Source: Candidatus Omnitrophota bacterium
Lineage (GTDB): Bacteria > Omnitrophota > Gorgyraeia > 2-02-FULL-51-18
Assembly (NCBI GenBank): GCA_945877765.1
Contig: CAMDWQ010000010.1
Span: 5,679-69,678, forward strand
Length of the DNA: 64,000 bases
Direction of reading: 5' to 3'
Made by a program: the position numbers and the translations under genes. The notes beneath the pieces were generated by a model that saw only the letters and a list, made by a program, of their open reading frames with translations, was not told the origin of the DNA and searched no databases. Positions within the stretch are counted from its first letter, which is position 1, and the number at the start of each line of letters is the position of its first letter. Below, piece after piece: positions 38,962 to 55,221 of the stretch.

Positions 38962-41900
38962 ATGCGCCGCTCGCCTTATTTAAAAATTATTTCGTTAGCT
39001 CTGATCATTAGCTTTTCCTTCTCCAACCTCCTCTATGCCGCCGACCCACGGGATCTCTTAAACGCCGCCAAAGCAGGCTTTGCCCTAGAAGACCAACGGC
39101 GTACCGGCGGGGAAGCGCCCCTAAATAATCAATCGCAAGGCTATGCCCAAGGATTGGTTGATCAGAAAAACAACCTAGCAGACCTAGAGCAATTAAACTT
39201 TTCTTTAACGACACAAAACGGAGATATTCTTAAGTATGCAGGCGATAAGCTAGCCCAGATCCAGCGGCCCGATGGAACGATTCTTCAAAATATTGTTTTA
39301 GCCGCGGACGGCAAAATCCAGAATGCGGATTTAAAACTCTTTGACGGTTCGATTCAGGTTTTTCAAAATGGCCAAGTCATAGGCTATGAGACTCCCGATG
39401 GAACCCAAGTCTTTTATGCCAACAGCCAGATACAAAAAACCATTTCTAAGAGTGGTGTTGAAACCCTCTACGCCTACACCAAAGACGCCAATGGGAAGGT
39501 CCTTGAGACTATCCTTGAGAACTCTCAAGCTAAAACCATCTATGATGCCCAAGGCAAATTAAAGGAAGTGTATCAGAAAGGACTATCTCAGCGGATGGTC
39601 TATCAGGCAGGAATTCTTCAAAGCATCACTCTGCAAGATGGCTCTCAAGCCCTTTTCCAAGCACAGACCATCAATAGCCAAGTCAAAGTTACGTTTAAGT
39701 CATATGTGGATGCGAATGGCAACACGTATGTGAATGATATGCAGTATCTTCTGAAAGATGGCTCTTCGCTAAAAAATATTATCTGGGGTAGTGATGGAAA
39801 AGTGGTTAATGCCTTACTCGAAAGCATCGACGGCAGCACCTACACTTTTACTAACAAGGTAATTACCGCCATTAGGCTTCCCAGCAATTGGGTACTCTCT
39901 TCCATCACCTGGGATACTCAAGACAAATTAAAAGACGGGATTCTTACGGATTTGGCTAATAACCAGTGGACCTATCAAGCGGGGGCACTGGTATCAATCA
40001 AGCTTCTGGACGGATCTATTCTATCGAGCATCACCTGGGATGCCCAAAATAAGATCAAAACTGCTAATTTAATAGACGCGCAAAAAAAGGAATACACTTT
40101 TGCCAATAATCAGCTCTCACAGCCTCTCAATGCGATCGCCTTTCAGCTTGATACCCAATACGGCCTTGTTGCCGGCAATAGCACCTACCAGTTCAACTGG
40201 GCGGGCAAGAATGAAAAATGGTTTAAGGCCAACAATAATACTTGGTATTTTATTCTCCCTGATGGCAAGGTGTATCTTTGGAATTCCGTTGCGGGTAAGA
40301 ACCTCACCACCTCCACGCTTGTAGTGACGCTAAACAGCAGTTATTGGGAAGATCCGGCATTTCTCTGTGATGCCTCCGATAGGGCAATAGTTCTCCAGCT
40401 TGATACTCAATATAGCCTTGTTCCCGGAAGCAGCACCTACCAATTCAACTGGGCCGGTCAGAATGAAAAGTGGTTTAAGGCCAACAACAATACCTGGTAC
40501 TATATTCTTCCCACAGGTCAATTGTATCTTTGGGATGCCAAGGGTGGTAAGAATCTCACCACCTCGACACTGGCAGCCACCCTCAACAGCCATTTTTGGG
40601 AAGACCCCACAAAGGTCCATCTTGCTTTTGAGAGAGCTGCTCTAGAAAGCACCGCGCTAAATCTAGATCGCCAGTACGCTCTTATTCCCAGTAGTAGTAA
40701 TTATTTCTTAAATTGGGCCGGTCAACAGGAAAAATGGTTTAAGAGTAGTAGCGGTACTGCCCAGTATTTTATACTCTCCGACGGAAGCTTGTATCTATGG
40801 AATCAACCCGCCGGAAAAAACCTCGCTACCTCCACAAAGCTTGCCACCCTCAGCGCTGATTACTGGGCAAATCCGACACTTCTTTGCCGCGCCTATGACC
40901 GCACAGTCGCAGTAGTCGTCACAAGCGCCTACACCGCAAAGATTATAGGTATCACCAAACCGCAAATTTCCGTGTCCAAAAGAACGCTCAGCGCGTCGAA
41001 ATTAAACATCGCTACTCTGAGCGCCGCTTTTTCGTTTAATTCAATTTTGTATAACACGGATGGAAGTTTTGCTCAGATCCTAGAAAAGGACAACACGACG
41101 CTTAATTTCAAAAATAATCTTTTGGTGGATGCCAAAGACGCGCAGGGAAAAATCATCCATTTTGATTTCACGGAGAGTGCTTTTGGAAATCTTTTAGGTT
41201 CAAGCCTCACGCAGAGCGGCGCGACATCCACCTATGATGAACAGGGAAATCTTTCCTCGGTAAAAGTGGGTGATACGACGATTCATTACAGCGCGGAAAA
41301 TAAAATCGAGTCCGTTGAGAAGGCGGACGGGACACGAGTGGAGAATATTATTTTTGATGCGCAAGGGAATATTCATGATGCCAAGATGACCGCGCCCGAT
41401 GGGACTCAGAGGACCTATCAGGCCAAAAAAATGATTCGTGAAAAAAAAGCTGATGGCACGGAGACTGATTTTGTGGACGGCAAGCCTTCGGTGACGCGGA
41501 TGGCGGACGGGCGGGTGTATGTCTATTCGCCGGCGGCTATTATCGGGAACTCTGCCGCTTTTAGGAGTATTTTGACGCAGTACGTCTCTGACGATGGAAG
41601 CGCTGTCTATGTCAATGACGGCATTCCCTTTAAAATCCAGACTAAGTCGGGCATGGTGTTGACAAATCTTGTGTTCGCGCTAGACGGTACTCTGACGGAT
41701 GCGATCGGATCTTTTACTGGGCCCGATGAAAATCAGATGACTTTAACCTATCAAGGTAAGGAAGTCAGGCAAATCATTTCCGCTGACGGCTCACGTCTAT
41801 TTTATGAAAATAATCGGCTTAAAAGCATGACCAAGCCCAATGGCGAGCAGATTATCTACGAATACACCCTCGATGGTGATGGGGAGATCTTGAAGATTAT

Positions 41901-44900
41901 TCTTAAAGACGCCTCTGGTACGCGGATTTATAATCCTGCTTTTGGAAAATCGTCCGAGCTTGTGGATGATGATTTGGTGAATCAGGACGGGGGAGAAGTC
42001 GATTTGGGACGCGCACTTCCTGCGATGGACCTATTGAGTTATTTCAAGGCGATCGAAAATACGACTACCCATTTGCCGGAAAGTCATGTGGGTATCAATG
42101 ACCCGCTGACTATTTCTTATACCTACGATGTGGCGCTGTATCTTTTGGCGGGAGCGTCTAGTGGCGGAGCTATTTTAGATTACATTATCAGTAACCCGGA
42201 AAAAATGATTAATACGACGTACGTCCCATCTGGCGGCATGTATAGCGATCTATCGACGTTGGGCGGTCAGGCGGGATTTGATCGAAACAGTGTGGTGGCG
42301 GGACCCAACGCGTGGATTGGTTTGGCTGCCTTGAAGCAATATCAAAAAACACAGGACGTAAAATATCTCAATTTTGCCAAAGCCCGAGCGGCCTTCATCA
42401 AGACGCTCTCGGATCCGTCAGGCGGTATCGTCATGGGGCCTGCAGGTCAATGGGGGATTCCCCCCTTCTCAGATCTTAAGTCCACGGAAAATAATCTATC
42501 CGCCCTCTATTTATACCAAGCGCTCTATACAGCGACCAATGACGCGCAATATCTTGCCGCGGCGGATAGTCTCTGGGCCTACGTAAAGACTCTTTATGAC
42601 CCGACCTTACACGCTTTTAGCCGCGGGGAACACAAGGGCGGCGGGGAGTGGCTTAAAGACAGTGCCAATGTTTTTGCCACGGACGTTTTGGCGTGGATGC
42701 CGTTTGAGCGCGTGGTGAATGATTCATTTTTTGGAGCGGATGTATTAGCCCGGCTAAAAGAAGTCGAGAATATGATTCGTGCCGCGGAGAAATACACGGG
42801 TCTTTTTACTCCGGTCGGTGATATTCAGGGTTTTAGTTATTCACCTGAGAGTAAAGATCGCAGTGTGATTTCCATTGAGTGGTCTGCTCAGATGGCCAAT
42901 CTTTATCTAAAAATTGCCCGCAGTTATAAGCAACTAGGAAATGACGTCAAATACCGTTTTTATGGATCTCGCTATCAAAAGTTGACCGCCTCGCTTGAGA
43001 CATTCGTCAAGACAGATGCTTCGGGTGTGAGTAGGGCTCCTTATGCTGTGTATCAAAATGGAAAAGGCGCTTACGGCGAGTTTACAGGGCATGGTTGGGC
43101 AACCCCTTCTCCCAAAAATCAAAATGGGGATGTTTTTAGCATGGCGAGTATCTATTATCAATTTTCACGTCAAAAAACAGATCCCTTGACCCTCGCCAAT
43201 GGATCCATCCTCTCGGCTAATTACATCAGCCAGGCCGATATTGATAAATATTCGGGCACGAGTTTACGCGATCAAAAATATTTTGACGCCGTGACCTCGC
43301 TTGAGCGCTATGAAAATGAAAAGTTTACGGCGGTATATTCCAAGGGCACTCTACGGAGTATCCAATATGAGAATATTTTGATCAACAATCCTGTGATTGA
43401 TGCCCGTGGATTTTTGGTGTCGGCAGAAATTCACACCCCTGATGGCCAGGTGTACACACTCAAAGATAGAAAATTGGCAACCCTCCTAAGGGCTAATGGG
43501 ACGCTTTTGGGTTATGAAGGAGACCTTATCGTGGATGTAACAGCGCCCAATGGAAAAAAAGTCCATTACACGTACACCAAAAATGCCCAAGGGTATGTGA
43601 CCGGCATCGCTGTGGAATACAACACCGGAAATGGGTGGATCGGTAAACCGATAGCGGAGTACTTATTTGATCCTGCCAACACCGAAGAAAAACCGATTCA
43701 TCAAACGAATTATCACTTGGCCGGTGATGACTACCGACAAGGTTCTGTTGGATCCTCAACAATTGGTAGCGGAGAATCGGAGTGGTTTGGTTCGGCGCAG
43801 GGACTGGACCCATTAGATCCCGAGGCCCGTCTTGTTTTTGATTCCAGCACGCTGGAGGGGACCGGTGACAGGAATTTTATAGATATTCAAGCGTATCGCT
43901 ACGATCTTGAATGGCCGGACAATATGCTTTCCGTCCAAAATGACAGTTTTGTATTTTTGAGAGCAAAAGAAACAAATTCTTCTACCGATGTTCATTTATC
44001 TCCCTATTGGATGACCGCGTCAGGATTATTGCTTTGGGTGCCGCTTCAAAATGGGTTTGATATCCCTCTCACTGATCAATATCAAAATCATCTGATTTCA
44101 ATCCAACCGGATGCGCTGGTTGTGGGTAGAAAAACATTTAACCTCCGCCTGGTTTTCGCGACGCCCATGCCCGCAGCCGCCCCATGGAAAATTTCTATCG
44201 CGGAGATGGATTATTTTCAATTAAAGCACATTGAGCCCGAGGATTACTTGCAGTACTTAAATCTTTCCCAAGAGCAGATGCTGGACGTTTCTAGGAAACC
44301 TTTAAAAAATGACGCCATGGATCTCCTTGAAGGGTCTCAGATCGTATCCAATTTTAATCATCAAAAGGAAGCCGAAAAGTTTTTGATCGCCATGGATCTT
44401 GACGCCAACTACAACTATTTATCCGGGACACGTGTGGATAAAAGTGTGGAGCGATATGCGGGCGGTAAGGTGGCAAGCCTGCTCAAGAATGGCTCTGAAG
44501 AGACCTACGAGTACGATGTCAACGGGCAGATCCAAAAAGTCATCAATAAAGACGCCGCGACTCAAGCGGTAAAGACAGTCACGTATTATCAATACGGACG
44601 CATCCGGCGGGTCGAGGACGCATCTGCGAAAGCGCTTTATACCTACAGCTACCAGACGGATTCTGCCAACAATGAAATTACACTCGTCAAAGATGAGGCA
44701 ACGGGGGAGCTAAAGCATTATCAAGGTAGTCGGCTCACGCAGATGGACAATGCCGACGGCACGCGAACGCTTTATTTTTATGAAAATACGGATGAGAGGA
44801 TTTCTCGCTCGCAGATCATGAGCGGTCAGAGTATCCTTGCAAAGTTTTCCTATTCCTATGAGGGCGCCAACACGCTTGTTACTGACGCTGATGGCGCCAC

Positions 44901-47900
44901 GAAAGTCTATGACGCCAACAACCTGCTTCTATCGATCATCACTCAAGGAGGTTTGGAATACCGGTTTAATCATTTAAAAGATGAGGCGGGCAATGCCGTG
45001 GAGGAGCAATTTTTGTATTCGGCCAAAACTGAGGATGGAATGACGCTCTTTTATAAAAATGACACCGTGGACAAAATTCAGCTAAAAGACGGGACCGTGA
45101 TTAATGTTTCCGAGGCGGATCAGGATTTGTATCAAAAAGTACTGATTAAGCAAGGCCTCGTGGACCAGGTGATTCATAAGACCGGGGAGCTTGCCGTTTA
45201 TATCCGTAATAATCGCGGGGATTTGAAAGAAGTCCGTGTCAGTAAAGCTGGGCAGGAGTACCGCTACACGCCCGATGGCCGTCTCGTAAGCCGCACAGAT
45301 GTTGGCGGCGTCACTTATCATTATGGATATATTTTGGATGGGGCTGGAAATATATCCAAGACGCGCGTGGTAAAGCGTACGGCAAAATTAATTGGGGGCG
45401 ATCTGCCAACAGTGGATCCGAATACCGGTGATTTTCTGAGACTGAGTGTTTTGTCTGCCGGGATTGTGGATGGGTGGAACGCAGGTCTATTTGCCAATGA
45501 CGAAGGTGTGGGGCATTTTGATACCAATTTCTGGCGGAATTCGTCGGATCAATGGACAGGCCGTGGGTATGACGTCGCCGTTGTCGATGCCAAAGGCAAA
45601 CTTATTAAGTCCGATCTTTTCGATATCTGGCAGCTTGGGGGCTCAGAAGCCGACCGGATGGCACAGTTTATTGAGCAAGTCCCTGTGGGAAATTATGTCC
45701 TCATGGCGGTCGGTGATGAAGGCGCTCTCAACATGACCGAGCGCGCTTACAAAGCCCTTGAGTCGCTGGGAAGCGCTCAGATACGAAATCTAAAGTTCAG
45801 GGGATCGTGGGGTCTTATTGGTAGAAAAGGTGCCGCTATTGGCACAGCCATCGAAGGTCTCCGAGATAGCCAAAAAGGCTACGTCTCTTTGCAAAATTAT
45901 GATACCGAGTATAGCTATTTTGATAAAAAGGGTGTTCCGATACCCTACGACCAATTCACCGCCGTTATTTCTCAAAATTGGAACAGTAGCTACCAGAGTT
46001 ATGTGGGGGATGCGGGGGAAATTCTTAAGACATCGGTCTATAGTGATGAATATGCTATCGCCTATCACAAAAATTATAATGAGCTCTATCCTGACTCCGG
46101 TTTTATTCAACTTTGGAATGACCGTTACCTTAATCAATTTACAGTCAATGAGTATGCCCAGGGAATCATAGATAAGGTTTCAACTACGGCTACCGCCAAA
46201 TATGTCTATTACGATAGCCGCTACCCGTTTAATTATGTCCACCCGCTTTTTGCAGTCGCTCTAAAAAATATTCTGGCGGCCAATGGCTTTCGGGTGATTG
46301 ATGCCAACCAGCTTGCGGAAGTCATGAAATTAGAAGGTTCTCACGCGGTGATTGTCTCGGCGCACGATGTGATGCCGGATACCATCTATGACCCCAATTC
46401 TATTTTTTCTATTTCTTATCGAAAGCTTTCGCGTACTTTTATGGAGAATGGCGGCACGCTCGTGTGGATGGGGGATCTGCCTTTTTATTACACGGGACAC
46501 GCGGACGGCAGTAAGACCATTGTCGGTGAGATCGGAGCGAAGACAGTTTTGGGGGTGATGCCTCTGGCGCGCGGCCTTCGTGCTCCGGTGAGTAGGACCT
46601 ATGTGCAAACTTTTGATGAATGGACGTTTATTAGCGGATGGATTCACGGAAATGGCGCGACGATTCAAAACGGGACTCTCCGACTGACTTCCCAATTGCC
46701 ATCAATAGTAGGCTCGGCAAGCGACCAAAACTTCAAGCCATCAACCGGGCTTTTGCGGTATACGGTTGATTTTAAAAATAATACGCTCAACTCAGGCTTT
46801 GAAACTTATCTAGAATTTCAAAATTTTACCCCTTATCAGACTCTGGGGATTCGCCAGGAAAACGGTGTGTTTAAATTTATAGGAAAGACTCCAGTGACCG
46901 GCGGATCGTCAGTGATTACCAATTTGGGCCAAGCTGCTTATGTTGCCGGCGTGGAATACACAGTGATTTTTGAAACCGAAAACAATGTCCTTAAAGTATT
47001 TTTATATCAAAAAAATCAGCCACAGCCCGAGGTGCCTACATTTTCAATCGCTAATGTGGACCCAAGCGTTGGGGCGAGTATTGGATTTAATATTCAGCAG
47101 GGTGAGGCGTTGGTCACAAGTCTTAAAAGAGATGAGAGGGAATACGAGATTATTTCTACGCAAGCGCCAAGCATTACTCCCGATTTTAGTTTGAAGGGCG
47201 GCGAGGCGGCGTTGGATACCTCCTTGCTTTATTTCGATACCAATGTCAATTTCCGGACGGTGCGTTGGGACAAGATTCAGGAATCGATTGGCTATTCGCT
47301 TGATAGCGATACGGCCGTGGTGTCCGATTACGATAAAAATGGTGATCTTATTTCCATTGCCAAGGCGGATCGCACGGTGACCACGTATGAAAACCAAAAA
47401 GTGCAGTTGGTGACGGACATCAACGGGTATGTTCTTGTGGAGTACGCTTACGATGCACAGGGTGCTTTGACTTCCATTACCAATGTCGGCCAAAGAAGAG
47501 AGCTCGCCGATCACATTGAGGACGCCAAAGACCGGGCCAATTTTGAGAAGCTATTTCTTTTTGAAGATGTTGCCATTGAGCATAATCTTACCGCTGGAGA
47601 GCCCATTGCTAAAAGTGCTCGCATCAGGTCGTTGGCGCACAGCGCCAATGTTCTCGACGGCGGACCTGAACCAGGAAGGTCATCGATGGGCATTGTTGCC
47701 GATGAGCTCATCAGTGAGCACGCAGAAAAATATCGCCAAGAGAATCCAAAGACGCTCGAGGGGGAAGTAGGAACAGACCCTTTCTGGATACAGGTTGCCG
47801 ATGGGTACTTGGCATACTCCAGCGCGAGACTGGAAGCGCTAAAAGTTTTACGTAGTACTCAAGATATCAAAGCCAAGAGCAGGGACGCCAAGAAAGAAAA

Positions 47901-50900
47901 GTCCAAGGCTCTTGACCGGGTGCGGGACATTATCCGAGATATCGACAACAGGGAAAATGAATATCACCAGACGGTGCTTCAAGCGATTTTCAATTTCAGC
48001 GCCGCTGTGCTCCAGCAGAAAAAAAATGAAATTGAGGCCGATTATCAAAAGGCATTTGATGCGCTCGCAGTGCAGACGAGCAATTTTGAAAAAGAAATCC
48101 AGAAAGAAGAGTCCAAGCCCGTCATCTCCGATTATTACCGCTCTATCTTAGGTCGCGATGCCACCAGCGCTGAGATTGAATCCTATTATCCGCAAATTGC
48201 ACAAAATGGAAAAATCAACGCCGCGGCTTTGGGCGTCAACTTGCGAAATTCAGCTGAGTTTATCCAAAGAACCAGTCGCGTTGGTAAGATTCGCGGGGAT
48301 GTCGAAGCGGCGCTGGATGAATATGTTTCTGCAGACACAGGCAAAAAAGCTACCCTTCTTGCCTCGCTAGGTCTTACTCCCTCCGAAGTCGTTAACCTCT
48401 CCGCGCAAGACATTCAAAAAATAAAAGATTACCTTCGTTCTCAAGCCCTGCATTTTGGCGAATCCGCTATCGAATCTTTGATGGCGCTGATCAAGTCCAG
48501 GGGGATTTCTCCCAACCGCGACGAATTGGCCGCCAAGCTCATTCTCATTGATATCTTCGCGGGCATCATTCACCCCTATTTGAAAGAAGGGGAGGAAATG
48601 CTCCTGTCGGCTTATTCGCTTCAGAAAGTCGCCGCTTTTTACGGGGTGGAAGCACAGACACTAAATCTTACCTATGAAGACATGCTCGCCATTTTTTCTG
48701 CAGGAACATCCTCTGCACGAGCGATTTTACACACAGAAGGTATTCATTATTCGGTGCTTACCGCGATCACCGCTGACCAAGTGACTATCCTTGAATACAA
48801 CGGTGATTCCCGCACCATGTCCAAGGCCGATTTTCTAAAATCGTGGAAGGGGGTAGCCCTTGTTGAAAAATCTACCGCCGCCCCCGTTCTCACCGGCCCC
48901 CAGAAATCAGCCACCGCACGTGTATTAAATTCAGATGAAGCCCGACAGATCAAGGGTGGATTCTTTATGTTTATCCCTTTTATCTTCACGATGCTTGCGC
49001 ATATAGCCGCGACCATCGGCGCCATCATTGCTAGCATCGGTACGATTATTGCCCAGATTGGCATCATGGTCGGCCAGATCCTACAGGGTTTGGGCGGCCT
49101 TCTATACCAGTTCGCCCAAGGCGTCGGCGCCGTTGTCAAAGGTCTCTGGACCGGCATCAAATTTGTCGGCATGAAAATTTTCACAGGCTTCGCCAAATTT
49201 TTCGGCCCGACCCTCGCCAAAGCCGCCGCCGGTGAGGCACTAAAGGTTACTGTTGGCCAGACCATTCTCAACAATGTCATCCGAATGGGTGTTAGCTACG
49301 TCGTCTCCAAAGGCCTCGACGCGCTGGGCGTGGACCCTATTGTCACGAGCATCATCTCAACGTTTGTGACAGGCGGGATGCACGGAGGATTTACCTCGCA
49401 AGGCTTCAATTTCGGCTTCAGCCTAGCCGACGGCCTCAAAGCAGGTCTCCAGTTAGGCGCCAAAACATTCCTCCAAGCCGCCGGGCTTGACCCCCAGCTT
49501 TCGGGAATCTTATCGATGACGACAGGCCCCTTGGTGAATGGGGTGTGGACGGGGAATGTGGGGGGAGAGTTATTTAAGATTGCGCCGGAGCTTACAACCA
49601 GCTTAGCTCAATACGGGATAGACAAACTCGGAAAATCGCTGGGGTTGGATCCGAGGCTGACAGGATTGATTTCAGCGCCAATCTCATTGGCGATAGGGAA
49701 AAATTTCCAGACTGGGAATATCTTCGGCCAAGATGTCATTAAGGCCGTCCAAGATGGCATTTTCCGAGGAGCTATCGCGTACGGCGTCGACTTTGCCGCC
49801 AATAGAATTACCGACAACAAGCTTCTTCAAGCCTTAAGCTCACGGCTTATCTCTGGAGCCATTGAAGGAACATTCCTTCAAAAAGATCTCTTTGCGGGAG
49901 TCGTTGGCGCCCTAAAGCAATCCGTTGTCGGCATTTTTGGAGCTAACCAAAGCGATGTTCTCGGCAATATTGTAAACTTCTCAACATTGGTGGCACAAAA
50001 TGGTTTTAAGAACGCCGCAGAGCTCTATTTGACCAATATCTTCAACAAACAGAGTATTGAAGCCATCTATCGCTTGGGCGGTATCGCAAGCGCTCTAGCG
50101 TCTCCTAAAACTCAAGTCACTCTCCCCGACGGAAGAGTTGCCTATCAGACAGTCACCTCCTCGGGAGAAGCGATAATCTTTGACGCCATGAACAACCTGC
50201 TCGGCTTTCAGAGAAACGGTCTTTATCAGATAGGAGGGTTTGGTATCACCAGCGCCGGATCCTTTGGGCTTATCAGTGGAAAATCTTTTGGAATGATCGC
50301 CGGCGGCTCATCATTTGAAGCCTCCATCCAAAATGGAAAAGTGACACAAATCACAACCTACACCGACCAAGTCCGCCTGGATATAGATTTGGGTGAAGGA
50401 ACGGATGGCATTCGTTTTGATTCCGACGGAAACCTGACCGATGGAAGGATGACGTTGGATGAGAGGATAGATTTTACGGTAGTCAATGGCACTGTTTACG
50501 GGATTGAGCTAGATAAAGAAAATCCAAATACAACCTCCGTTAACGATGCGTATGCGTTTGCTGAGCGTATTATTAGTGCTGTGCTGGATGGCTCGGGGAG
50601 TTCGAGTTCTGGGTCTAGCGTGATTGACCAATTGCAAAAAGAGCTCATCACTTACTATCTATTTGGTAATGGATTTGAGAATGAAAGAAGGAAAGAAGAT
50701 ACCCTTGATCCGCTTTTGAAGTTTTATACAGATAATCTGGAATTCGATGATCCTAAAGTGATTACTGAGGGTCAAAAAATTGTGGTGGATCTCTATGAAT
50801 TTACCAAAGTCGCCGGAAACGGTTTGGATTGGCTAGGGGATTTCAATCCCGTATTTTTAGTTTTGTTGTTAGGCGTGTTAGGCCTGACCTACGTCGCCGC

Positions 50901-51681
50901 CGATAGAATCATCCAAAAGGTGATCAACAACGAATCTCTGGATTCATCCGCCTCGGACGGAGAAAAATCTTTTTATCAAAAAGTACAAGATTACCTAAGA
51001 AAATTTAGCGAACAGACAGGTCTTGGCAATAATCTCGTACTTGAAACCATCAGACAAATGGAAGCATTGCAAGCCAAAAAAGGAAAGCTAAAAGATGCTA
51101 TCGCATTCGTTCACTCAGGGGCCACAGCCCCCGTTTTAAGTGCCATCGAGCAAATGCAATATGATGTAGAAACAGTGCTTATCTATGAAGGGCCCCACCC
51201 AAACTACACCGCACAATTTACAAATCCAAGCTTAAAGCGTATTATTCATGTCATGGGGTCGAGCCACGGCCTATTAGACAGCTCGCTCGAGGGAGACGCG
51301 CCTGTGCCGTTTTTGGGATGGGCAAACTTTAAAAACCCAGCCAACGTTGATTTTAAAAACATCAATATTGAAATTGAGGGTGCCTGGCACAGCGATTATG
51401 CCTATAACGCAGAGGAATGGGATAAAAAAATCGCTGCTGTTACAGGAAGCACCCCAACCGCGGTTGAGGCTGATCGAAATCGCATCAGAGCACTAAAGGA
51501 AAGAAATAGAAAAGTGAATTTATTCATGAGGGATTTGTATCAGGCGGCCTACAAAGATCAGACAAATCAAGGGCTCTTGGACGATTTTTTTGAAGATCTA
51601 AAAACAAAAGGCGCAGCCAATCTAGAGAGTGGCATCTGGAAAATTGATCCCACAAAATTAAGAGATGTGACCCCCCAATGA
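38962..51681 (+). CDS. Giant secreted multidomain protein (4239 aa) with YD/RHS-type repeats, a triplicated 83-aa module, a FAM3/ILEI-like domain, a DUF4214-like motif, an inactive C39-like peptidase fold, a Gly/Ala-rich hydrophobic region and a C-terminal GxSxG domain
   Basis: Uninterrupted ORF with ribosome-binding site and signal peptide MRRSPYLKIISLALIISFSFSNLLYAADP; many Y.YD..G repeats; the domain evidence is given in the findings. Confidence 0.85.
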   Translation: MRRSPYLKIISLALIISFSFSNLLYAADPRDLLNAAKAGFALEDQRRTGGEAPLNNQSQGYAQGLVDQKNNLADLEQLNFSLTTQNGDILKYAGDKLAQIQRPDGTILQNIVLAADGKIQNADLKLFDGSIQVFQNGQVIGYETPDGTQVFYANSQIQKTISKSGVETLYAYTKDANGKVLETILENSQAKTIYDAQGKLKEVYQKGLSQRMVYQAGILQSITLQDGSQALFQAQTINSQVKVTFKSYVDANGNTYVNDMQYLLKDGSSLKNIIWGSDGKVVNALLESIDGSTYTFTNKVITAIRLPSNWVLSSITWDTQDKLKDGILTDLANNQWTYQAGALVSIKLLDGSILSSITWDAQNKIKTANLIDAQKKEYTFANNQLSQPLNAIAFQLDTQYGLVAGNSTYQFNWAGKNEKWFKANNNTWYFILPDGKVYLWNSVAGKNLTTSTLVVTLNSSYWEDPAFLCDASDRAIVLQLDTQYSLVPGSSTYQFNWAGQNEKWFKANNNTWYYILPTGQLYLWDAKGGKNLTTSTLAATLNSHFWEDPTKVHLAFERAALESTALNLDRQYALIPSSSNYFLNWAGQQEKWFKSSSGTAQYFILSDGSLYLWNQPAGKNLATSTKLATLSADYWANPTLLCRAYDRTVAVVVTSAYTAKIIGITKPQISVSKRTLSASKLNIATLSAAFSFNSILYNTDGSFAQILEKDNTTLNFKNNLLVDAKDAQGKIIHFDFTESAFGNLLGSSLTQSGATSTYDEQGNLSSVKVGDTTIHYSAENKIESVEKADGTRVENIIFDAQGNIHDAKMTAPDGTQRTYQAKKMIREKKADGTETDFVDGKPSVTRMADGRVYVYSPAAIIGNSAAFRSILTQYVSDDGSAVYVNDGIPFKIQTKSGMVLTNLVFALDGTLTDAIGSFTGPDENQMTLTYQGKEVRQIISADGSRLFYENNRLKSMTKPNGEQIIYEYTLDGDGEILKIILKDASGTRIYNPAFGKSSELVDDDLVNQDGGEVDLGRALPAMDLLSYFKAIENTTTHLPESHVGINDPLTISYTYDVALYLLAGASSGGAILDYIISNPEKMINTTYVPSGGMYSDLSTLGGQAGFDRNSVVAGPNAWIGLAALKQYQKTQDVKYLNFAKARAAFIKTLSDPSGGIVMGPAGQWGIPPFSDLKSTENNLSALYLYQALYTATNDAQYLAAADSLWAYVKTLYDPTLHAFSRGEHKGGGEWLKDSANVFATDVLAWMPFERVVNDSFFGADVLARLKEVENMIRAAEKYTGLFTPVGDIQGFSYSPESKDRSVISIEWSAQMANLYLKIARSYKQLGNDVKYRFYGSRYQKLTASLETFVKTDASGVSRAPYAVYQNGKGAYGEFTGHGWATPSPKNQNGDVFSMASIYYQFSRQKTDPLTLANGSILSANYISQADIDKYSGTSLRDQKYFDAVTSLERYENEKFTAVYSKGTLRSIQYENILINNPVIDARGFLVSAEIHTPDGQVYTLKDRKLATLLRANGTLLGYEGDLIVDVTAPNGKKVHYTYTKNAQGYVTGIAVEYNTGNGWIGKPIAEYLFDPANTEEKPIHQTNYHLAGDDYRQGSVGSSTIGSGESEWFGSAQGLDPLDPEARLVFDSSTLEGTGDRNFIDIQAYRYDLEWPDNMLSVQNDSFVFLRAKETNSSTDVHLSPYWMTASGLLLWVPLQNGFDIPLTDQYQNHLISIQPDALVVGRKTFNLRLVFATPMPAAAPWKISIAEMDYFQLKHIEPEDYLQYLNLSQEQMLDVSRKPLKNDAMDLLEGSQIVSNFNHQKEAEKFLIAMDLDANYNYLSGTRVDKSVERYAGGKVASLLKNGSEETYEYDVNGQIQKVINKDAATQAVKTVTYYQYGRIRRVEDASAKALYTYSYQTDSANNEITLVKDEATGELKHYQGSRLTQMDNADGTRTLYFYENTDERISRSQIMSGQSILAKFSYSYEGANTLVTDADGATKVYDANNLLLSIITQGGLEYRFNHLKDEAGNAVEEQFLYSAKTEDGMTLFYKNDTVDKIQLKDGTVINVSEADQDLYQKVLIKQGLVDQVIHKTGELAVYIRNNRGDLKEVRVSKAGQEYRYTPDGRLVSRTDVGGVTYHYGYILDGAGNISKTRVVKRTAKLIGGDLPTVDPNTGDFLRLSVLSAGIVDGWNAGLFANDEGVGHFDTNFWRNSSDQWTGRGYDVAVVDAKGKLIKSDLFDIWQLGGSEADRMAQFIEQVPVGNYVLMAVGDEGALNMTERAYKALESLGSAQIRNLKFRGSWGLIGRKGAAIGTAIEGLRDSQKGYVSLQNYDTEYSYFDKKGVPIPYDQFTAVISQNWNSSYQSYVGDAGEILKTSVYSDEYAIAYHKNYNELYPDSGFIQLWNDRYLNQFTVNEYAQGIIDKVSTTATAKYVYYDSRYPFNYVHPLFAVALKNILAANGFRVIDANQLAEVMKLEGSHAVIVSAHDVMPDTIYDPNSIFSISYRKLSRTFMENGGTLVWMGDLPFYYTGHADGSKTIVGEIGAKTVLGVMPLARGLRAPVSRTYVQTFDEWTFISGWIHGNGATIQNGTLRLTSQLPSIVGSASDQNFKPSTGLLRYTVDFKNNTLNSGFETYLEFQNFTPYQTLGIRQENGVFKFIGKTPVTGGSSVITNLGQAAYVAGVEYTVIFETENNVLKVFLYQKNQPQPEVPTFSIANVDPSVGASIGFNIQQGEALVTSLKRDEREYEIISTQAPSITPDFSLKGGEAALDTSLLYFDTNVNFRTVRWDKIQESIGYSLDSDTAVVSDYDKNGDLISIAKADRTVTTYENQKVQLVTDINGYVLVEYAYDAQGALTSITNVGQRRELADHIEDAKDRANFEKLFLFEDVAIEHNLTAGEPIAKSARIRSLAHSANVLDGGPEPGRSSMGIVADELISEHAEKYRQENPKTLEGEVGTDPFWIQVADGYLAYSSARLEALKVLRSTQDIKAKSRDAKKEKSKALDRVRDIIRDIDNRENEYHQTVLQAIFNFSAAVLQQKKNEIEADYQKAFDALAVQTSNFEKEIQKEESKPVISDYYRSILGRDATSAEIESYYPQIAQNGKINAAALGVNLRNSAEFIQRTSRVGKIRGDVEAALDEYVSADTGKKATLLASLGLTPSEVVNLSAQDIQKIKDYLRSQALHFGESAIESLMALIKSRGISPNRDELAAKLILIDIFAGIIHPYLKEGEEMLLSAYSLQKVAAFYGVEAQTLNLTYEDMLAIFSAGTSSARAILHTEGIHYSVLTAITADQVTILEYNGDSRTMSKADFLKSWKGVALVEKSTAAPVLTGPQKSATARVLNSDEARQIKGGFFMFIPFIFTMLAHIAATIGAIIASIGTIIAQIGIMVGQILQGLGGLLYQFAQGVGAVVKGLWTGIKFVGMKIFTGFAKFFGPTLAKAAAGEALKVTVGQTILNNVIRMGVSYVVSKGLDALGVDPIVTSIISTFVTGGMHGGFTSQGFNFGFSLADGLKAGLQLGAKTFLQAAGLDPQLSGILSMTTGPLVNGVWTGNVGGELFKIAPELTTSLAQYGIDKLGKSLGLDPRLTGLISAPISLAIGKNFQTGNIFGQDVIKAVQDGIFRGAIAYGVDFAANRITDNKLLQALSSRLISGAIEGTFLQKDLFAGVVGALKQSVVGIFGANQSDVLGNIVNFSTLVAQNGFKNAAELYLTNIFNKQSIEAIYRLGGIASALASPKTQVTLPDGRVAYQTVTSSGEAIIFDAMNNLLGFQRNGLYQIGGFGITSAGSFGLISGKSFGMIAGGSSFEASIQNGKVTQITTYTDQVRLDIDLGEGTDGIRFDSDGNLTDGRMTLDERIDFTVVNGTVYGIELDKENPNTTSVNDAYAFAERIISAVLDGSGSSSSGSSVIDQLQKELITYYLFGNGFENERRKEDTLDPLLKFYTDNLEFDDPKVITEGQKIVVDLYEFTKVAGNGLDWLGDFNPVFLVLLLGVLGLTYVAADRIIQKVINNESLDSSASDGEKSFYQKVQDYLRKFSEQTGLGNNLVLETIRQMEALQAKKGKLKDAIAFVHSGATAPVLSAIEQMQYDVETVLIYEGPHPNYTAQFTNPSLKRIIHVMGSSHGLLDSSLEGDAPVPFLGWANFKNPANVDFKNINIEIEGAWHSDYAYNAEEWDKKIAAVTGSTPTAVEADRNRIRALKERNRKVNLFMRDLYQAAYKDQTNQGLLDDFFEDLKTKGAANLESGIWKIDPTKLRDVTPQ

Positions 51682-52175
51682 AAAATAAAGCTATTTTAAT
51701 ACTCGCAGGATCGCTACTCACTCTAATTTTGCTATTTATTTATTTTACAAACTCAAGAGCGACATATTCCAAGATAGCTGTTCGCTCAATCGATGAAAAT
51801 AAAATTTACGTTGGCGATGAAAAGCCAGGACTAGAATCAGCATCGGATGAGGCTAGTAGCTTTGCTAAGACTGTAGAGGGGCTTAACGAAGGTTGGGATA
51901 ATATTGGAACAGGAGAATCTTATTATAGAGCAGGGCAATATGAGGAGGCTGTAAAAGCTTATAAAAAAGCATACGATGTCGATCCTGGAAACAGGACTCT
52001 CTCAGGCAACAAATTGATCAACGTTTACGAAAAGCTCTCCCGATACGACGAAGCCATCGCCCTAGTAGATGAAATCTTAAAAACCCAACCACTTGTTGAA
52101 TATGGCATAGCGAAGTTCACCGCCATCCGCACTCGCCTCCTCGCCGCCAAAGTCCAATCTGCCAAAGCTGAATGA
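51678..52175 (+). CDS. Small membrane-anchored TPR-like protein, translationally coupled to the giant gene
   Basis: 165 aa; ATGA stop/start overlap; N-terminal transmembrane segment; helical repeats YYRAGQYEEAVKAYKKAYDVDP. Confidence 0.6.
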   Translation: MKNKAILILAGSLLTLILLFIYFTNSRATYSKIAVRSIDENKIYVGDEKPGLESASDEASSFAKTVEGLNEGWDNIGTGESYYRAGQYEEAVKAYKKAYDVDPGNRTLSGNKLINVYEKLSRYDEAIALVDEILKTQPLVEYGIAKFTAIRTRLLAAKVQSAKAE

Positions 52176-54437: not shown

Positions 54438-54453
54438 AAGCTGAGAAGAATTT

Positions 54454-55221
54454 TTGCGCTTAAATTTTGATGTATCGGTTGTCAGGGGTTTGAGAAGCGC
54501 CTCCCAAAGAGCGCGAGTTTTAACTGAGGACTGGGTTGATAAGCAAGTTTATTGCCCTAATTGCGGGCTTGTCGATATAGATAAATATCCAAATAATAAT
54601 CCCGCCGCCGATTTTCACTGCTCGAATTGCCATGAAGACTATGAGCTCAAAAGCAAAAACTCTAAAATTGGCACAAGAGTCGTCGACGGAGCCTACAAGA
54701 CATTGATTCAGAAGTTGCGGGGCAGTACCAATCCCAATCTATTTTTGTTAAATTACGATCCGCGAAGTCTTGAAGTTCAAAATTTTTTTGTGATTCCAAA
54801 GCACTTTTTTATTCCTGAAATTATTGAAAAGAGGAAACCGCTTGTACTCACCGCTCGCCGTGCCGGGTGGGTTGGTTGTAACATTCTTCTGCATGGCATC
54901 CCGCAAACGGGGAAAATTTATTTTGTAAAAAATCGTATTGTTGAGTCGAAATCAAAGGTACTTTCCTGTTGGAAAAAAACACTTTTTTTGAGAGAAGAAA
55001 AAGAGCTTGTCGCCAAAGGCTGGCTTTTGGATGTGATGCGCTGTGTCGAGCAGCTTAGCCAAAGTTTTTCACTTGATGAAGTTTATTCTTTCGCGGGAGA
55101 GCTCGGGATCAAACACCCTGGGAATCGACACATCAAGGATAAAATCCGTCAACAGTTGCAGGTTCTGCGTGAGAGAGGCTACCTCGAGTTTATCGGGCGA
55201 GGCCGTTACCGGCGCCCTTGA
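54454..55221 (+). CDS. DpnI-family methyl-directed (Gm6ATC) type IIM restriction endonuclease
   Basis: 255 aa; strong similarity as recalled to S. pneumoniae DpnI (QRARVLTEDWV..YCPNCG...ADFHCSNCHEDYELKSK...ARRAGWVGCNI...HIKDKIRQQLQVLRE...GRGRYR). Confidence 0.7.
   Translation: MRLNFDVSVVRGLRSASQRARVLTEDWVDKQVYCPNCGLVDIDKYPNNNPAADFHCSNCHEDYELKSKNSKIGTRVVDGAYKTLIQKLRGSTNPNLFLLNYDPRSLEVQNFFVIPKHFFIPEIIEKRKPLVLTARRAGWVGCNILLHGIPQTGKIYFVKNRIVESKSKVLSCWKKTLFLREEKELVAKGWLLDVMRCVEQLSQSFSLDEVYSFAGELGIKHPGNRHIKDKIRQQLQVLRERGYLEFIGRGRYRRP

What the first reader, a model, noticed from the sequence alone, without database searches (positions are those of the whole stretch)
48124..48870. DUF4214-like motif followed by a C39-peptidase-like fold that lacks the catalytic cysteine
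ISDYYRSILGRDATSAEIESYYPQIAQNGKINAAALGVNLRNSAEFIQ fits the DUF4214 signature (Y..lLgR....G...W...l..G.....l...f..S.EF). The region 48440-48870 matches the C39 bacteriocin-processing peptidase topology (ESLMALIKSRGIS...ARAILHTEGIHYSVLTAI.ADQVTILEYNGDSRTMSKADFLKSWKGVALV). The nucleophile position is E/S rather than C (GESAIESL against QSECGLA), as in the inactive C39-like domains of RTX exporters. It may be a degenerate releasing peptidase or a substrate-binding module.
Basis: partly seen in the sequence, partly recalled or inferred. Interest (0 to 1): 0.55.

Follow-up and report, generated by a model that had tools for sequence, protein, structure and literature searches.

The report
Serine-type C39 self-cleavage module
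Inside a 4239-residue secreted protein of an uncultured Omnitrophota bacterium sits a conserved C39-type peptidase domain with serine in place of the catalytic cysteine, followed 30 residues later by its own "double-glycine" cutting site just before a membrane anchor, so it most likely cuts the giant protein free rather than being a dead domain.

Summary
The region 48124-48870 lies in one 4239-aa ORF (38962-51681). Peptidase_C39 (PF03412) scores 33-39 bits against a cut-off of 22. An AlphaFold model (pLDDT 93) matches the ComA, PCAT1 and LahT peptidase domains at TM 0.63-0.69. DUF4214 stays below threshold (12.7-14.5 bits against 23.2), although its YRxILGRDPxxxE motif is nearly invariant in relatives.

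The reading "inactive, like HlyB CLDs" is not supported. In 160 related domain copies from Omnitrophota giant proteins, the nucleophile column is Ser in 137, Cys in 16 and V/I/G in 7.
- Every Ser or Cys copy aligned through the His column keeps the catalytic His, and nearly all keep the Asp/Glu.
- All seven V/I/G copies have lost the His.
- Both serine codon families occur, and a Cys variant exists in the same subtype.

About 30 residues downstream is a cis copy of the double-glycine leader consensus: L(-12)-S/T-x-x-E(-8)-x-x-x-I(-4)-R/K-G(-2, 154/154)-A/S/G(-1). It occurs once per protein, immediately before a hydrophobic anchor. AlphaFold models it confidently as a helix plus an extended tail, as in the LahT-leader complex.

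Best reading (about 0.55): a self-processing, serine-nucleophile C39 variant that cuts after G3333 and frees the exported passenger. This is a new variant of a known kind, and cleavage is untested.

The parts
38962..51681 (+). Giant ORF, 4239 aa. It carries the module and is the protein proposed to be cut.
   Evidence: ORF list. Pfam finds ILEI at aa 2201-2291, RHS/YD repeats, and Peptidase_C39 at aa 3215-3304. The exact protein is in NCBI/ENA collections on a 70.6-kb contig. Relatives come from Candidatus Omnitrophota MAGs.
38962..39042 (+). N-terminal signal-peptide-like segment, MRRSPYLKIISLALIISFSFSNLLYA|ADP.
   Evidence: Hydrophobic segment at aa 6-28. 56 of 105 full-length relatives have the same kind of N-terminus, with a conserved ...YAAD/WAGD end. 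Export of the passenger is inferred from this.
48079..48441 (+). All-helical domain, aa 3040-3160, carrying the DUF4214-like motif YYRSILGRDATSAE...L..L..SAEF (nt 48133-48261).
   Evidence: AF2 helices 2-24, 30-34, 37-43, 48-56, 59-84, 87-96 and 109-121, with pLDDT above 90. G3064, R3065 and E3071 are invariant. PF13946 scores only 12.7-14.5 bits against 23.2. There is a weak match to phycobilisome-linker domains, E 0.011.
48442..48873 (+). C39-type peptidase fold, aa 3161-3304: three helices, a six-stranded sheet and two small helices.
   Evidence: PF03412 above its cut-off. Foldseek TM 0.63-0.69 to ComA, LahT and PCAT1 peptidase domains. hhalign 93%. The order of secondary-structure elements matches the ComA description in PMC8277102.
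48463..48465 (+). S3168 (codon TCC), at the position of the catalytic Cys (ComA C17), within the motif H3164-F-G-E-S-A-I.
   Evidence: Column counts are S137, C16, V5, I1, G1. The residue is the first of helix 128-139 in the model. The register places A3169 on ComA G18. The codon is TCN in the window and 15 loci but AGC in L007. A Cys variant, HFGECAI, occurs in P0116.
48745..48747 (+). H3262, at the position of the catalytic His (ComA H96, PCAT1 H99).
   Evidence: 76/76 in full-module relatives and 155/162 over all copies. It aligns to the His in PCAT1 and ComA. It is lost only in copies that also lost the nucleophile.
48793..48795 (+). E3278, at the position of the catalytic Asp (ComA D112, PCAT1 D115).
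   Evidence: The column holds D in 85 and E in 73 of 161 copies. It aligns to D115 and D112.
48874..48924 (+). Variable linker, aa 3305-3321, between the peptidase fold and the leader-like motif.
   Evidence: Gappy, length-variable columns. The lowest pLDDT block of the model, about 70, is at residues 271-280.
48925..48960 (+). Cis double-glycine-leader-like motif LNSDEARQIKGG, aa 3322-3333. The predicted scissile bond is G3333|F3334, between nt 48960 and 48961.
   Evidence: Column counts: -12 L/I/M in 150/154; -11 S/T/D/N; -8 E in 74 and Q in 36; -4 I/V/L in 145/154; -3 R/K in 140/154; -2 G in 154/154; -1 A98, S45, T9, G2. The strict regex hits once in 88 of 150 proteins, never twice, and 0 times in shuffles. 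AF2 gives a helix at 285-290 (pLDDT about 95) and an extended or bridged 292-293. This matches the LahT-leader geometry, where -4 to -11 are helical and -1 to -3 are linear (PMC6363468).
48961..49116 (+). Hydrophobic segment of about 50 residues starting at P1' (FFMFIPFIFTMLAHIAATIGAIIASIG...). Presumed membrane anchor.
   Evidence: Kyte-Doolittle segments at aa 3330-3375. The family consensus after the G-[ASG] is F-[FWL]-x-[FL]-[LI].
48961..50361 (+). Conserved Gly-rich helical region followed by a beta-rich end, aa 3334-3800. It always accompanies the module.
   Evidence: Homologous in about 95 of 149 relatives. The module ends a median of 870 aa before the C-terminus. The AF2 model is poor, pLDDT 52.8, so the fold is unknown.
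50824..50916 (+). Second hydrophobic segment, aa 3955-3985, before a C-terminal domain of about 250 aa (50917-51678) with no family match.
   Evidence: Hydropathy. No Pfam or NCBIfam hit. Conserved in only about 20 relatives.
51678..52175 (+). Translationally coupled 165-aa TM + TPR protein. Its start overlaps the giant ORF's stop.
   Evidence: ORF list. TPR hits. The same-strand small ORF, which overlaps the giant gene's end in 9 of the 10 loci examined, follows the giant gene in related loci and is TPR in L004 and L010.

Best explanation
The region is the core of a conserved processing module of Omnitrophota giant surface proteins. The module runs: a helical DUF4214-like domain, then a C39-fold peptidase whose nucleophile is serine (S3168, with H3262 and E3278), then a short linker, then a built-in double-glycine-type leader (L3322...E3326...I3330-K-G3332-G3333), then a hydrophobic membrane segment.

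Proposed mechanism:
1. The N-terminal signal peptide sends the 3300-residue passenger across the cytoplasmic membrane. The hydrophobic segment at 3334-3385 stops transfer.
2. The leader-like helix docks in the peptidase's hydrophobic groove and places G3332-G3333 in the active site.
3. The domain cuts its own chain after G3333, in a single turnover, in cis or between neighbouring copies.
4. This separates the passenger, which still carries the peptidase, from the membrane-embedded C-terminal part of about 900 aa.
5. Serine rather than cysteine fits an extracytoplasmic, strongly Cys-depleted protein.

Shown: the fold, the residue identities and their conservation and co-variation, the motif and its uniqueness, and the family architecture.

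Inferred: export topology, docking, catalytic competence of Ser, the cleavage itself, and its consequence.
For: Fold and family: PF03412 scores 33-39 bits against a cut-off of 22. 24 of 25 relatives hit it. The family profile hits PCAT1 at E 3.7e-8. hhalign to ComA gives 93%. The AF2 model has pLDDT 93.2, with Foldseek TM 0.63-0.69 over about 140 columns to active C39 domains.

Triad: S3168, H3262 and E3278 map onto ComA C17, H96 and D112.

Conservation: Ser in 137, Cys in 16 and V/I/G in 7 of 160 copies; His in 155 of 162; Asp or Glu in 158 of 161.

Internal control:
- All 126 Ser copies that align through the His column keep the His, and 124 of them keep the acid.
- All 16 Cys copies keep the His.
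- None of the 7 V/I/G copies keeps it.
- Ser copies carry a second invariant His at -4 (136 of 137), against 1 of 16 Cys copies.

Nucleophile interchange: the Ser codon is TCC in the window and AGC in L007, and Cys (HFGECAI) occurs in the same subtype.

Substrate in cis:
- The motif matches the published leader rule of GG/GA/GS with L-12, E-8, a hydrophobic -7 and a hydrophobic -4 (PMC6363468; PMC1538908).
- G(-2) is invariant in 154 of 154.
- The motif occurs once per protein in 88 of 150 proteins, never twice, and 0 times in shuffles.
- The modelled secondary structure of the motif mirrors the LahT-leader complex.

Location: signal-peptide-like N-terminus. Cys content is 0.047% against 0.95% in the neighbouring genes.

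Precedent: the C39 domain of StbD-CT auto-processes in cis after a Gly-Gly in its own linker. Its structure, 8ssk, was Foldseek rank 3.
Against: - No experiment or proteomic evidence for cleavage exists.
- To my knowledge (not tested here), Cys-to-Ser substitutions in papain-fold and C39 peptidases are generally strongly impaired, and no characterised clan-CA peptidase uses Ser.
- Atomic coordinates of the model could not be inspected. Ser-His-Glu geometry and the distance from G3333 to S3168 are therefore inferred from secondary structure, pLDDT and alignments only.
- The DSSP 'E' states at 282 and 292-293 could pair with each other rather than with the domain.
- Position -7 is mostly Ala or Thr rather than Leu, and the oxyanion Gln is not conserved (Q or R at 3161).
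- HMMER does not align the N-terminal third of the domain to PF03412.
- Single-sequence similarity of the nucleophile helix to ComA is weak.
- Membrane topology is not established.
Confidence: 0.55

Rival explanations
1. Non-catalytic C39-like domain. The fold is kept as a binding module that clamps the cis leader-like helix, or a partner protein, as a tether, chaperone or folding lock without cutting it. This is comparable in spirit to the HlyB CLD, and it is the first reader's reading.
For: No Cys anywhere in the domain. To my knowledge, Cys-to-Ser mutants of C39 and papain-fold enzymes are usually inactive. The oxyanion Gln is not conserved. CLDs show that the fold can persist as a binding module (PMC8277102). 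A conserved docked helix is equally expected for a pure binding function.
Against: CLDs carry assorted residues (Y, L, N) at the Cys position, and their substrates lack GG motifs. Here only Ser or Cys occurs in intact copies. His and the acid are retained in effectively all of them. The family's own degenerate copies lose the nucleophile and the His together. G(-2) invariance with a small -1 residue is the signature of a scissile site rather than of a helix-binding site. The domain is not fused to an ABC transporter.
Confidence: 0.2
2. Active peptidase that works in trans on other substrates, such as other giant proteins, prey surface proteins or secreted GG-leader peptides. The cis motif would act as an autoinhibitory pseudo-substrate or pro-segment, not as the physiological release site.
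For: The conserved triad. In relatives, degenerate copies that have their own GG-like motifs sit next to Cys-type copies, which implies trans cleavage there. StbD-CT cleaves both itself and foreign GG sites. West-Roberts et al. also allow 'other protein substrates'.
Against: The strict motif occurs exactly once per protein and always directly after the domain. No GG-leader peptide genes or PCAT transporter lie near the gene. Trans activity and self-release are not mutually exclusive, so this is partly an extension rather than a rival.
Confidence: 0.15
3. The conserved ...[RK]-G-[ASG]|F-F-hydrophobic junction is cut by a different enzyme, such as a prepilin-type or signal peptidase, or is not cut at all. 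On this view the C39-like domain is unrelated to the junction.
For: A basic residue, then Gly, then Phe and a hydrophobic helix is superficially reminiscent of type IV prepilin junctions (my knowledge). Omnitrophota giant genes are often near type II secretion or pilus genes.
Against: Prepilin sites are G|F-T-L-I-E with Glu at +5 (my knowledge), whereas here an extra small residue follows the Gly and no Glu is conserved. The conserved L-12, E-8 and I-4 periodicity is the C39 leader rule. The motif always travels with the C39-like domain.
Confidence: 0.05
4. Tox-PL-C39: the domain is the toxin head of an RHS-type polymorphic toxin.
For: RHS/YD repeats lie upstream. Tox-PL-C39 domains exist in polymorphic toxins (PMC3482391). 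The CdiA-like toxin structure 8ssk appears among the Foldseek hits.
Against: The domain is not C-terminal and is followed by a conserved stretch of about 900 aa. It is conserved rather than polymorphic across more than 100 representatives. No immunity-like gene is conserved downstream.
Confidence: 0.03

Closest known systems
Peptidase family C39 (PF03412): bacteriocin-processing PEP domains of PCAT/AMS ABC transporters (ComA, PCAT1, LahT)
   Same: Same fold: three N-terminal helices, a six-stranded sheet and two small helices (Foldseek TM 0.63-0.69). The profile hit is above the cut-off. His and the acidic residue are at the same positions. The substrate rule is the same, a leader helix with L-12, E-8 and I/V-4 ending in G-G/A/S.
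   Different: The nucleophile is Ser, not Cys. The acid is Glu or Asp. There is an extra invariant His at -4 and a conserved 13-residue insertion (D3197...G3201...S3216). The domain is not fused to an ABC transporter. The substrate is encoded in cis, C-terminal to the domain. The location is probably extracytoplasmic instead of cytoplasmic. A DUF4214-like helical domain precedes it.
StbD-CT C39 peptidase toxin of Citrobacter rodentium (PDB 8ssk; bioRxiv 10.64898/2026.05.07.723447)
   Same: A C39 domain inside a very large exported protein that cuts its own chain in cis after a Gly-Gly, releasing the domain from a tether. It was recovered by Foldseek.
   Different: StbD uses Cys183 and is redox-gated. 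Its GG site lies upstream of the peptidase in a linker. It is a C-terminal polymorphic toxin with an immunity protein and foreign targets (GyrB, ParE). The window's domain is internal, uses Ser, has the site downstream with a full leader consensus, and is followed by a membrane anchor.
C39-like domains (CLD) of RTX type I secretion ABC transporters (HlyB and others)
   Same: A C39 fold without the catalytic Cys. The His is retained.
   Different: CLDs have Tyr, Leu or Asn at the Cys position. They sit on ABC transporters and bind uncleaved substrates that lack GG motifs. Here Ser is invariant and alternates only with Cys, a GG-type site is present in cis, and no transporter is attached.
C39 domains already noted on Omnitrophota giant proteins (West-Roberts et al. 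2023, bioRxiv 10.1101/2023.11.21.568195; 2026 preprint 10.64898/2026.06.07.730766)
   Same: Same phylum and same Pfam call. Both propose that the domains cut the giant proteins. The window protein also carries an ILEI domain, which that paper lists for its Dockerin-type giants.
   Different: [quoted passage not shown] The window protein is a smaller relative of 4.2 kaa, with no SecA-like domain detected.
DUF4214 (PF13946) and phycobilisome-linker-like helical domains
   Same: The motif Y-R-x-[IL]-L-G-R-[DE]-P...E...W...L...L..S.E in a small helical bundle. There are weak matches to PF13946 and to ApcE linker domains (E 0.011).
   Different: The window sequence is below Pfam's cut-off, and 23 of 25 relatives do not reach E<=0.01. 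Function is unknown in both cases.

Membership tests
Peptidase C39 (PF03412, MEROPS clan CA) | Profile match above the curated gathering score | tested here: met
   33.1-39.3 bits against 22. 24 of 25 relatives hit it. Only profile positions 45-130 align.
Peptidase C39 (PF03412, MEROPS clan CA) | Papain-like C39 fold with the nucleophile at the start of helix 1 and His/Asp on adjacent strands | tested here: met
   AF2 pLDDT 93.2. Foldseek TM 0.63-0.69 to 5xe8, 6mpz and 7n87 over about 140 columns. The order of secondary-structure elements matches the ComA description.
Peptidase C39 (PF03412, MEROPS clan CA) | Catalytic cysteine | tested here: not met
   S3168 occupies the position. There is no Cys in the domain. 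In the family the column is Ser in 137, Cys in 16 and other residues in 7.
Peptidase C39 (PF03412, MEROPS clan CA) | Catalytic His and Asp | tested here: met
   H3262 aligns to PCAT1 H99 and ComA H96. E3278 aligns to D115 and D112. The acid is Glu here, and Asp in 85 or Glu in 73 across the family.
Peptidase C39 (PF03412, MEROPS clan CA) | Cleaves after a double-glycine-type leader (GG/GA/GS with L-12, E-8, hydrophobic -7 and -4) | tested here: inconclusive
   A matching motif is present in cis and conserved. Cleavage itself cannot be tested with these tools.
Peptidase C39 (PF03412, MEROPS clan CA) | N-terminal fusion to an ABC transporter (typical, not universal) | tested here: not met
   The domain lies at aa 3161-3304 of a 4239-aa protein. 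No ABC_tran or ABC membrane domain was found in it.
C39-like domain (CLD) of RTX exporters | Nucleophile replaced by a non-catalytic residue, variable between members (Y, L, N) | tested here: not met
   Ser is conserved in 137 of 160 copies and alternates with Cys. CLD residues are taken from PMC8277102.
C39-like domain (CLD) of RTX exporters | Part of an HlyB-type ABC transporter, binding an uncleaved substrate that lacks a GG motif | tested here: not met
   No transporter domains. A GG-type motif is encoded in cis.
DUF4214 (PF13946) | Profile match above the curated gathering score | tested here: not met
   12.7-14.5 bits against 23.2. 2 of 25 relatives reach E<=0.01, with a best value of 8e-5.
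Tox-PL-C39 polymorphic toxin head | C-terminal, variable toxin domain followed by an immunity gene | tested here: not met
   The domain is internal, followed by about 900 conserved residues. Downstream ORFs are TPR proteins or unannotated.
Omnitrophota giant-protein C39 architecture group (West-Roberts 2023; 2026 preprint) | A PF03412 domain on a very long Omnitrophota protein with a membrane anchor | tested here: met
   Relatives are in Candidatus Omnitrophota MAGs. Typical lengths are 2000-7000 aa. Hydrophobic segments are present. The organism of the window itself is inferred from relatives and from synteny with L003, not from a direct hit.

The most novel reading that the evidence does not exclude
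A papain-fold (clan CA, C39-type) peptidase lineage has switched its nucleophile from Cys to Ser and remains catalytically active. It gained a Ser-specific auxiliary His (the HFGxSA motif) and works outside the cytoplasm as a single-turnover self-releasing protease, using a double-glycine leader encoded in its own chain. That would define the first concrete cleavage point of Omnitrophota giant proteins. It would also be a natural example of Cys-to-Ser nucleophile exchange in this fold, with living Cys intermediates and both serine codon families present.
Probability: 0.4. Interest if true: 0.78.

Novelty: new variant of a known kind. Interest (0 to 1): 0.62.

Why it matters
Omnitrophota giant proteins are thought to mediate attachment to and attack on prey cells. 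Whether and where they are cut is an open question. The main paper on them states that missing cleavage points blocked the analysis.

This module gives a specific, testable scissile bond, after the invariant G-[A/S/G] and before the membrane anchor. It also gives specific catalytic residues to mutate.

For enzymology, a conserved Ser-His-Glu/Asp set in a C39 fold would be a rare natural case of nucleophile exchange in clan CA. It has internal controls in the same family: Cys copies that keep the His and dead copies that lose it.

For annotation, these proteins are currently named after unrelated N-terminal domains or left as 'hypothetical'. The word-indexed homology search misses them entirely.

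Tried and rejected
1. Word-indexed homolog searches with the region and with the family profile found essentially nothing. Only the exhaustive phmmer search revealed the family.
2. phmmer of the single domain against PDB sequences found nothing. The profile search did.
3. The genome-contig scan with the 1200-aa C-terminal part found no relative. The 25-sequence alignment was too diverse to seed a scan. A 6-sequence alignment worked.
4. AF2 of the downstream Gly-rich region (aa 3334-3800) gave pLDDT 52.8. I did not fold-search it, because matches would be meaningless, so its fold and topology remain unknown.
5. An ungapped BLOSUM scan of the nucleophile helix against ComA was not decisive. The register rests on hhalign plus the order of secondary-structure elements.
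6. A global MAFFT alignment of the C-terminal 900 aa timed out, and the fast version was too gappy to use. I used phmmer coverage instead.
7. PADLOC gave only a chance-level hit. NCBIfam added nothing for the module.
8. I considered and rejected a prepilin-type junction, a Tox-PL-C39 toxin head and a CLD-type dead domain. See the rival explanations.
9. I looked for a PCAT transporter, GG-leader peptide genes or a secretion system next to the gene. There are none. The neighbours are housekeeping genes, an oligopeptide-type ABC importer and a DndB-like/DpnI pair.
10. Model coordinates are not exposed by the tools, so no inter-residue distances could be measured.
Full report
**1. What is at the coordinates**

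It is aa 3055-3303 of a single 4239-aa ORF, 38962-51681 on the + strand.

The ORF starts with a signal-peptide-like segment (MRRSPYLKIISLALIISFSFSNLLYA|ADP). It has further hydrophobic segments at aa 3330-3375 and 3955-3985, and only two cysteines in total, C469 and C642.

Pfam on the whole protein finds the following:
- an ILEI domain at aa 2201-2291;
- RHS/YD repeats;
- Peptidase_C39 at aa 3215-3304 (33.1 bits, cut-off 22);
- DUF4214 below threshold (12.7 bits against 23.2).

On sub-fragments C39 reaches 37-39 bits and DUF4214 reaches 14.5 bits. NCBIfam and PADLOC add nothing relevant.

The neighbours are housekeeping genes: GAPDH, PGK, TPI, an oligopeptide-type ABC importer, GlgC-like, ThiG, IMDH-like, Asd and TruA. 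There is also an AsmA/DUF748-like gene just upstream, a translationally coupled TM+TPR gene downstream, and a low-GC DndB-like/DpnI pair. No PCAT transporter, leader-peptide gene or secretion system sits next to the gene.

**2. The family**

Word-indexed searches found nothing. The exhaustive phmmer search found 279 representatives, 81 of them at E<=1e-30. Nearly all are proteins of 2000-7000 aa.

In most of them the module ends 770-930 aa before the C-terminus, whatever the length of the N-terminal part. The roughly 470 residues after the module are homologous in about 95 of 149 relatives. The last 250 residues are homologous in only about 20.

A genome scan seeded with the motif [SP][RQ][SA]LHFG[QE]SA returned 16 loci. 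Nine are titled Candidatus Omnitrophota or Omnitrophica; the other seven are labelled 'uncultured Planctomycetia' (four) or 'uncultured bacterium' (three). L003 shares the Asd-TruA-giant gene order with the window.

Database names for members are 'LamG-like jellyroll fold domain-containing protein [Candidatus Omnitrophota bacterium]' or 'hypothetical protein'. The window's own organism was not hit directly, so its assignment to Omnitrophota is an inference from relatives and synteny.

**3. Fold**

An AF2 model of aa 3040-3336, built with a 25-sequence alignment, is confident: pLDDT 93.2, pTM 0.91.

Residues 1-121 of the model are an all-helical domain that carries the DUF4214-like motif. Residues 128-263 contain three helices, then strand, helix, four strands, helix, strand. 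This is the element order described for ComA PEP, with three N-terminal helices on a six-stranded sheet plus two small helices (PMC8277102).

Foldseek against the PDB puts ComA PEP (5xe8, TM 0.69), PCAT1 PEP (7n87, 0.63) and LahT150 (6mpz, 0.67) on top, over about 140 columns, which is the entire C39 domain. A family profile hits PCAT1 by sequence at E 3.7e-8. hhalign of the family against two ComA sequences gives 93% probability. I verified those ComA sequences against PDB entries 8hf7 and 3k8u.

**4. The catalytic positions**

The profile and HH alignments put H3262 on PCAT1 H99 and ComA H96, and E3278 on D115 and D112. The helix register puts A3169 on ComA G18, hence S3168 on C17. S3168 is the first residue of helix 1 in the model.

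Counts across 160 aligned domain copies from the 150 retrievable representatives:

| Position | Residues |
|---|---|
| Nucleophile column | Ser 137, Cys 16, Val 5, Ile 1, Gly 1 |
| His column | His 155 of 162 |
| Acid column | Asp 85, Glu 73 of 161 |

The family supplies its own control:
- All 126 Ser copies that align through the His column have the His, and 124 of them have the acid.
- All 16 Cys copies have the His.
- All 7 copies with V/I/G at the nucleophile position have lost the His (D, L, N or M instead).

Ser copies almost always carry a further His four residues upstream, giving the motif HFGxSA[FIY], in 136 of 137. Only 1 of 16 Cys copies has it, and that copy is P0116, HFGECAI, a Cys variant of the window's own subtype.

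The Ser codon is TCN in the window (TCC, 48463-48465) and in 15 loci. It is AGC in L007, the closest subtype. Moving between those codon families needs two substitutions, and Cys (TGC) is one possible intermediate. Taken together this is the pattern expected of a used nucleophile, not of a decayed site.

In the RTX-exporter CLDs the position holds Tyr, Leu or Asn, and the substrates have no GG motif and are not cut (PMC8277102).

**5. A substrate in cis**

Thirty residues after the fold ends, the family has a second conserved block. Numbering from the last small residue as -1:

| Position | Residues |
|---|---|
| -12 | L/I/M in 150 of 154 |
| -11 | S/T/D/N |
| -8 | E 74, Q 36 |
| -7 | A/T/L |
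| -4 | I/V/L in 145 of 154 |
| -3 | R/K in 140 of 154 |
| -2 | Gly in 154 of 154 |
| -1 | A 98, S 45, T 9, G 2 |

Phe-Phe/Trp and a hydrophobic segment of about 50 residues follow. In the window the block reads L3322-N-S-D-E-A-R-Q-I-K-G-G3333 | FFMFIPFIF...

This is the double-glycine leader rule: LSxxELxxIxGG (PMC1538908), with leaders ending GG, GA or GS and L-12, E-8 and L-7 as recognition residues (PMC6363468).

A strict regular expression for the motif hits exactly once in 88 of 150 family proteins, never twice, and not at all in shuffled sequences. In the window protein it is the only hit.

In the LahT150-leader crystal structure, residues -1 to -3 are extended and -4 to -11 form a two-turn helix lying in a hydrophobic groove. 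In the AF2 model, residues -10 to -5 are a helix in a block with pLDDT about 95. Residues -3 and -2 are in an extended or bridged state, after a lower-confidence linker with pLDDT about 70.

I could not inspect coordinates, so docking is an inference.

Related N-terminal-type giant proteins have tandem pairs, a dead copy followed by a Cys copy, and each copy is followed by its own GG-like motif. 'C39 fold plus downstream GG site' is therefore a recurring unit in these proteins.

**6. Mechanism proposed**

- The passenger of about 3300 aa is exported through its signal peptide.
- The hydrophobic segment after the GG site holds the chain in the membrane.
- The leader-like helix docks on the peptidase.
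- S3168, H3262 and E3278 cut after G3333.
- The passenger, with the peptidase at its new C-terminus, is freed from the C-terminal membrane part of about 900 aa.

The giant protein is about 20-fold depleted in Cys relative to its neighbours: 0.047% against 0.95%, with a family median of 0.18%. This fits an extracytoplasmic protein and offers a rationale for Ser.

There is a direct precedent for cis auto-processing by a C39 domain after a Gly-Gly. StbD-CT of Citrobacter rodentium does this, and its structure, 8ssk, came up in the fold search.

The fold, the residues, their conservation and co-variation, and the motif are shown. Export, docking, catalytic competence of Ser, and cleavage are inferred. 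I put this reading at about 0.55.

**7. Rivals**

- A non-catalytic clamp of the CLD type, about 0.2. The main support is the general rule, from my knowledge, that Cys-to-Ser variants of papain-fold enzymes are poor catalysts. The main evidence against is the coupled loss of nucleophile and His in truly dead copies, together with the invariant small residues at -2 and -1.
- A trans-acting peptidase whose cis motif is a pro-segment or pseudo-substrate, about 0.15. This is partly compatible with the main model.
- Cleavage by another enzyme, such as a prepilin-type peptidase, about 0.05. The junction lacks the G|FTLIE pattern, and the upstream periodicity is that of C39 leaders.
- A Tox-PL-C39 toxin head, about 0.03. 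The domain is internal, conserved and lacks an immunity partner.

**8. The DUF4214-like part**

The motif YYRxILGRD[PA]xxxE...W...L...L..S.E is real and nearly invariant and sits in a confident helical bundle.

The window sequence and 23 of 25 relatives do not reach PF13946 significance. The family profile only grazes phycobilisome-linker domains, at E 0.011.

It is best called DUF4214-like. Its role is unknown. It always precedes the peptidase fold in the C-terminal-type module.

**9. Comparison with the literature and novelty**

C39 domains on Omnitrophota giant proteins were reported before. They were proposed to cut the proteins or to act like the HlyB CLD (West-Roberts et al. 2023). A 2026 preprint lists a PF03412 architecture cluster.

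The 2023 paper gives no cleavage point and contains none of the words cysteine, nucleophile, catalytic or double-glycine. It says the lack of cleavage points blocked part of the analysis.

New here:
- the Ser-for-Cys state and its co-varying His;
- the internal dead-copy control;
- the cis leader motif with an invariant Gly, which predicts the scissile bond;
- the fixed tripartite module placed about 870 aa from the C-terminus.

I rate this a new variant of a known kind, with interest 0.62.

**10. Limits**

- There are no experimental data.
- No model coordinates were available.
- The topology and the fold of the downstream 900 aa are unknown.
- Only 150 of the 279 representatives could be analysed.
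- The alignment columns come from HMM-guided alignments of sequences about 30-40% identical to the window sequence.

Noticed in passing
window 40144-40604 (protein aa ~390-650): A 252-nt (84-aa) tandem repeat, 1.8 copies at 80% identity, with a third, more divergent copy visible in the protein (QLDTQY..NWAG.NEKWFKANNNTWY..LP.G..YLW...). The only two cysteines of the 4239-aa protein (C469, C642) lie in these repeats.
   Followed up: partly
window 38962-51681 versus the other ORFs: The giant ORF is about 20-fold depleted in cysteine: 0.047% against 0.95% in 35 other window ORFs. The family median is 0.18%.
   Followed up: partly
window 51678-52175; L003:13555-14352, L004:12929-13420, L010:13971-14708, L013:11303-11785, L017:13199-13684 and others: The giant gene's stop overlaps the start of a small same-strand ORF (ATGA in the window). 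That ORF is a TM+TPR protein here and in L004 and L010, and has no Pfam match in several other loci. It may be a conserved coupled partner.
   Followed up: partly
window 52356-55221: A DndB-like protein (PF14072, 693 aa) followed by a DpnI-type methyl-dependent restriction enzyme (PF06044 + PF17726), in a low-GC patch (0.38-0.40 against about 0.47). This looks like an acquired defence islet right after the giant gene.
   Followed up: no
window 21466-22815: A protein with Schlafen/AlbA_2, HATPase_c_4 and winged-HTH domains, set among glycolysis genes.
   Followed up: no
P0011 aa 123-628, P0090 142-696, P0113 24-487, P0129 206-752, P0131 123-610, P0072 126-617, P0132 128-614: Other Omnitrophota giant proteins carry an N-terminal tandem pair. 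The first copy is a degenerate C39-like domain with the nucleophile changed to V/I/G and the His lost. The second is a Cys-type copy with the motif xxNCA. The dead copies each carry their own GG-like motif (for example ...TKKNTKGT|FFAKL); most Cys copies also have one (...LQTLRGA|F), though none aligned in P0132.
   Followed up: partly
window 48451-48453 (H3164) and 48550-48609 (D3197...G3201...S3216): Ser-type copies have an extra invariant His at -4 (HFGxSA). A 13-residue insertion, relative to ComA, between helices 2 and 3 has near-invariant D, G and S. The roles are unknown; they may be adaptations to the Ser nucleophile or to the oxyanion hole.
   Followed up: partly
window 49330-49740 (aa ~3457-3592): The downstream Gly-rich region contains three copies of a short motif: ALGVDPIVTSIIS, AAGLDPQLSGILS and SLGLDPRLTGLIS. 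The region is conserved in about 95 relatives, but AF2 could not model it (pLDDT 52.8).
   Followed up: partly
window 25174-26034 versus 24069-25271: The listed triosephosphate isomerase ORF starts about 100 nt inside the phosphoglycerate kinase ORF. The TIM domain begins only at residue 34, so the true start is probably further downstream.
   Followed up: no
N-termini of P0001, P0004, P0007, P0010, P0003, P0014: Family proteins share not only a signal-peptide-like start but also a conserved stretch right after it (...YAADVRQMLLDAK... or ...WALDPRQKLLDDA...). Both ends of these otherwise variable giants are therefore conserved.
   Followed up: no
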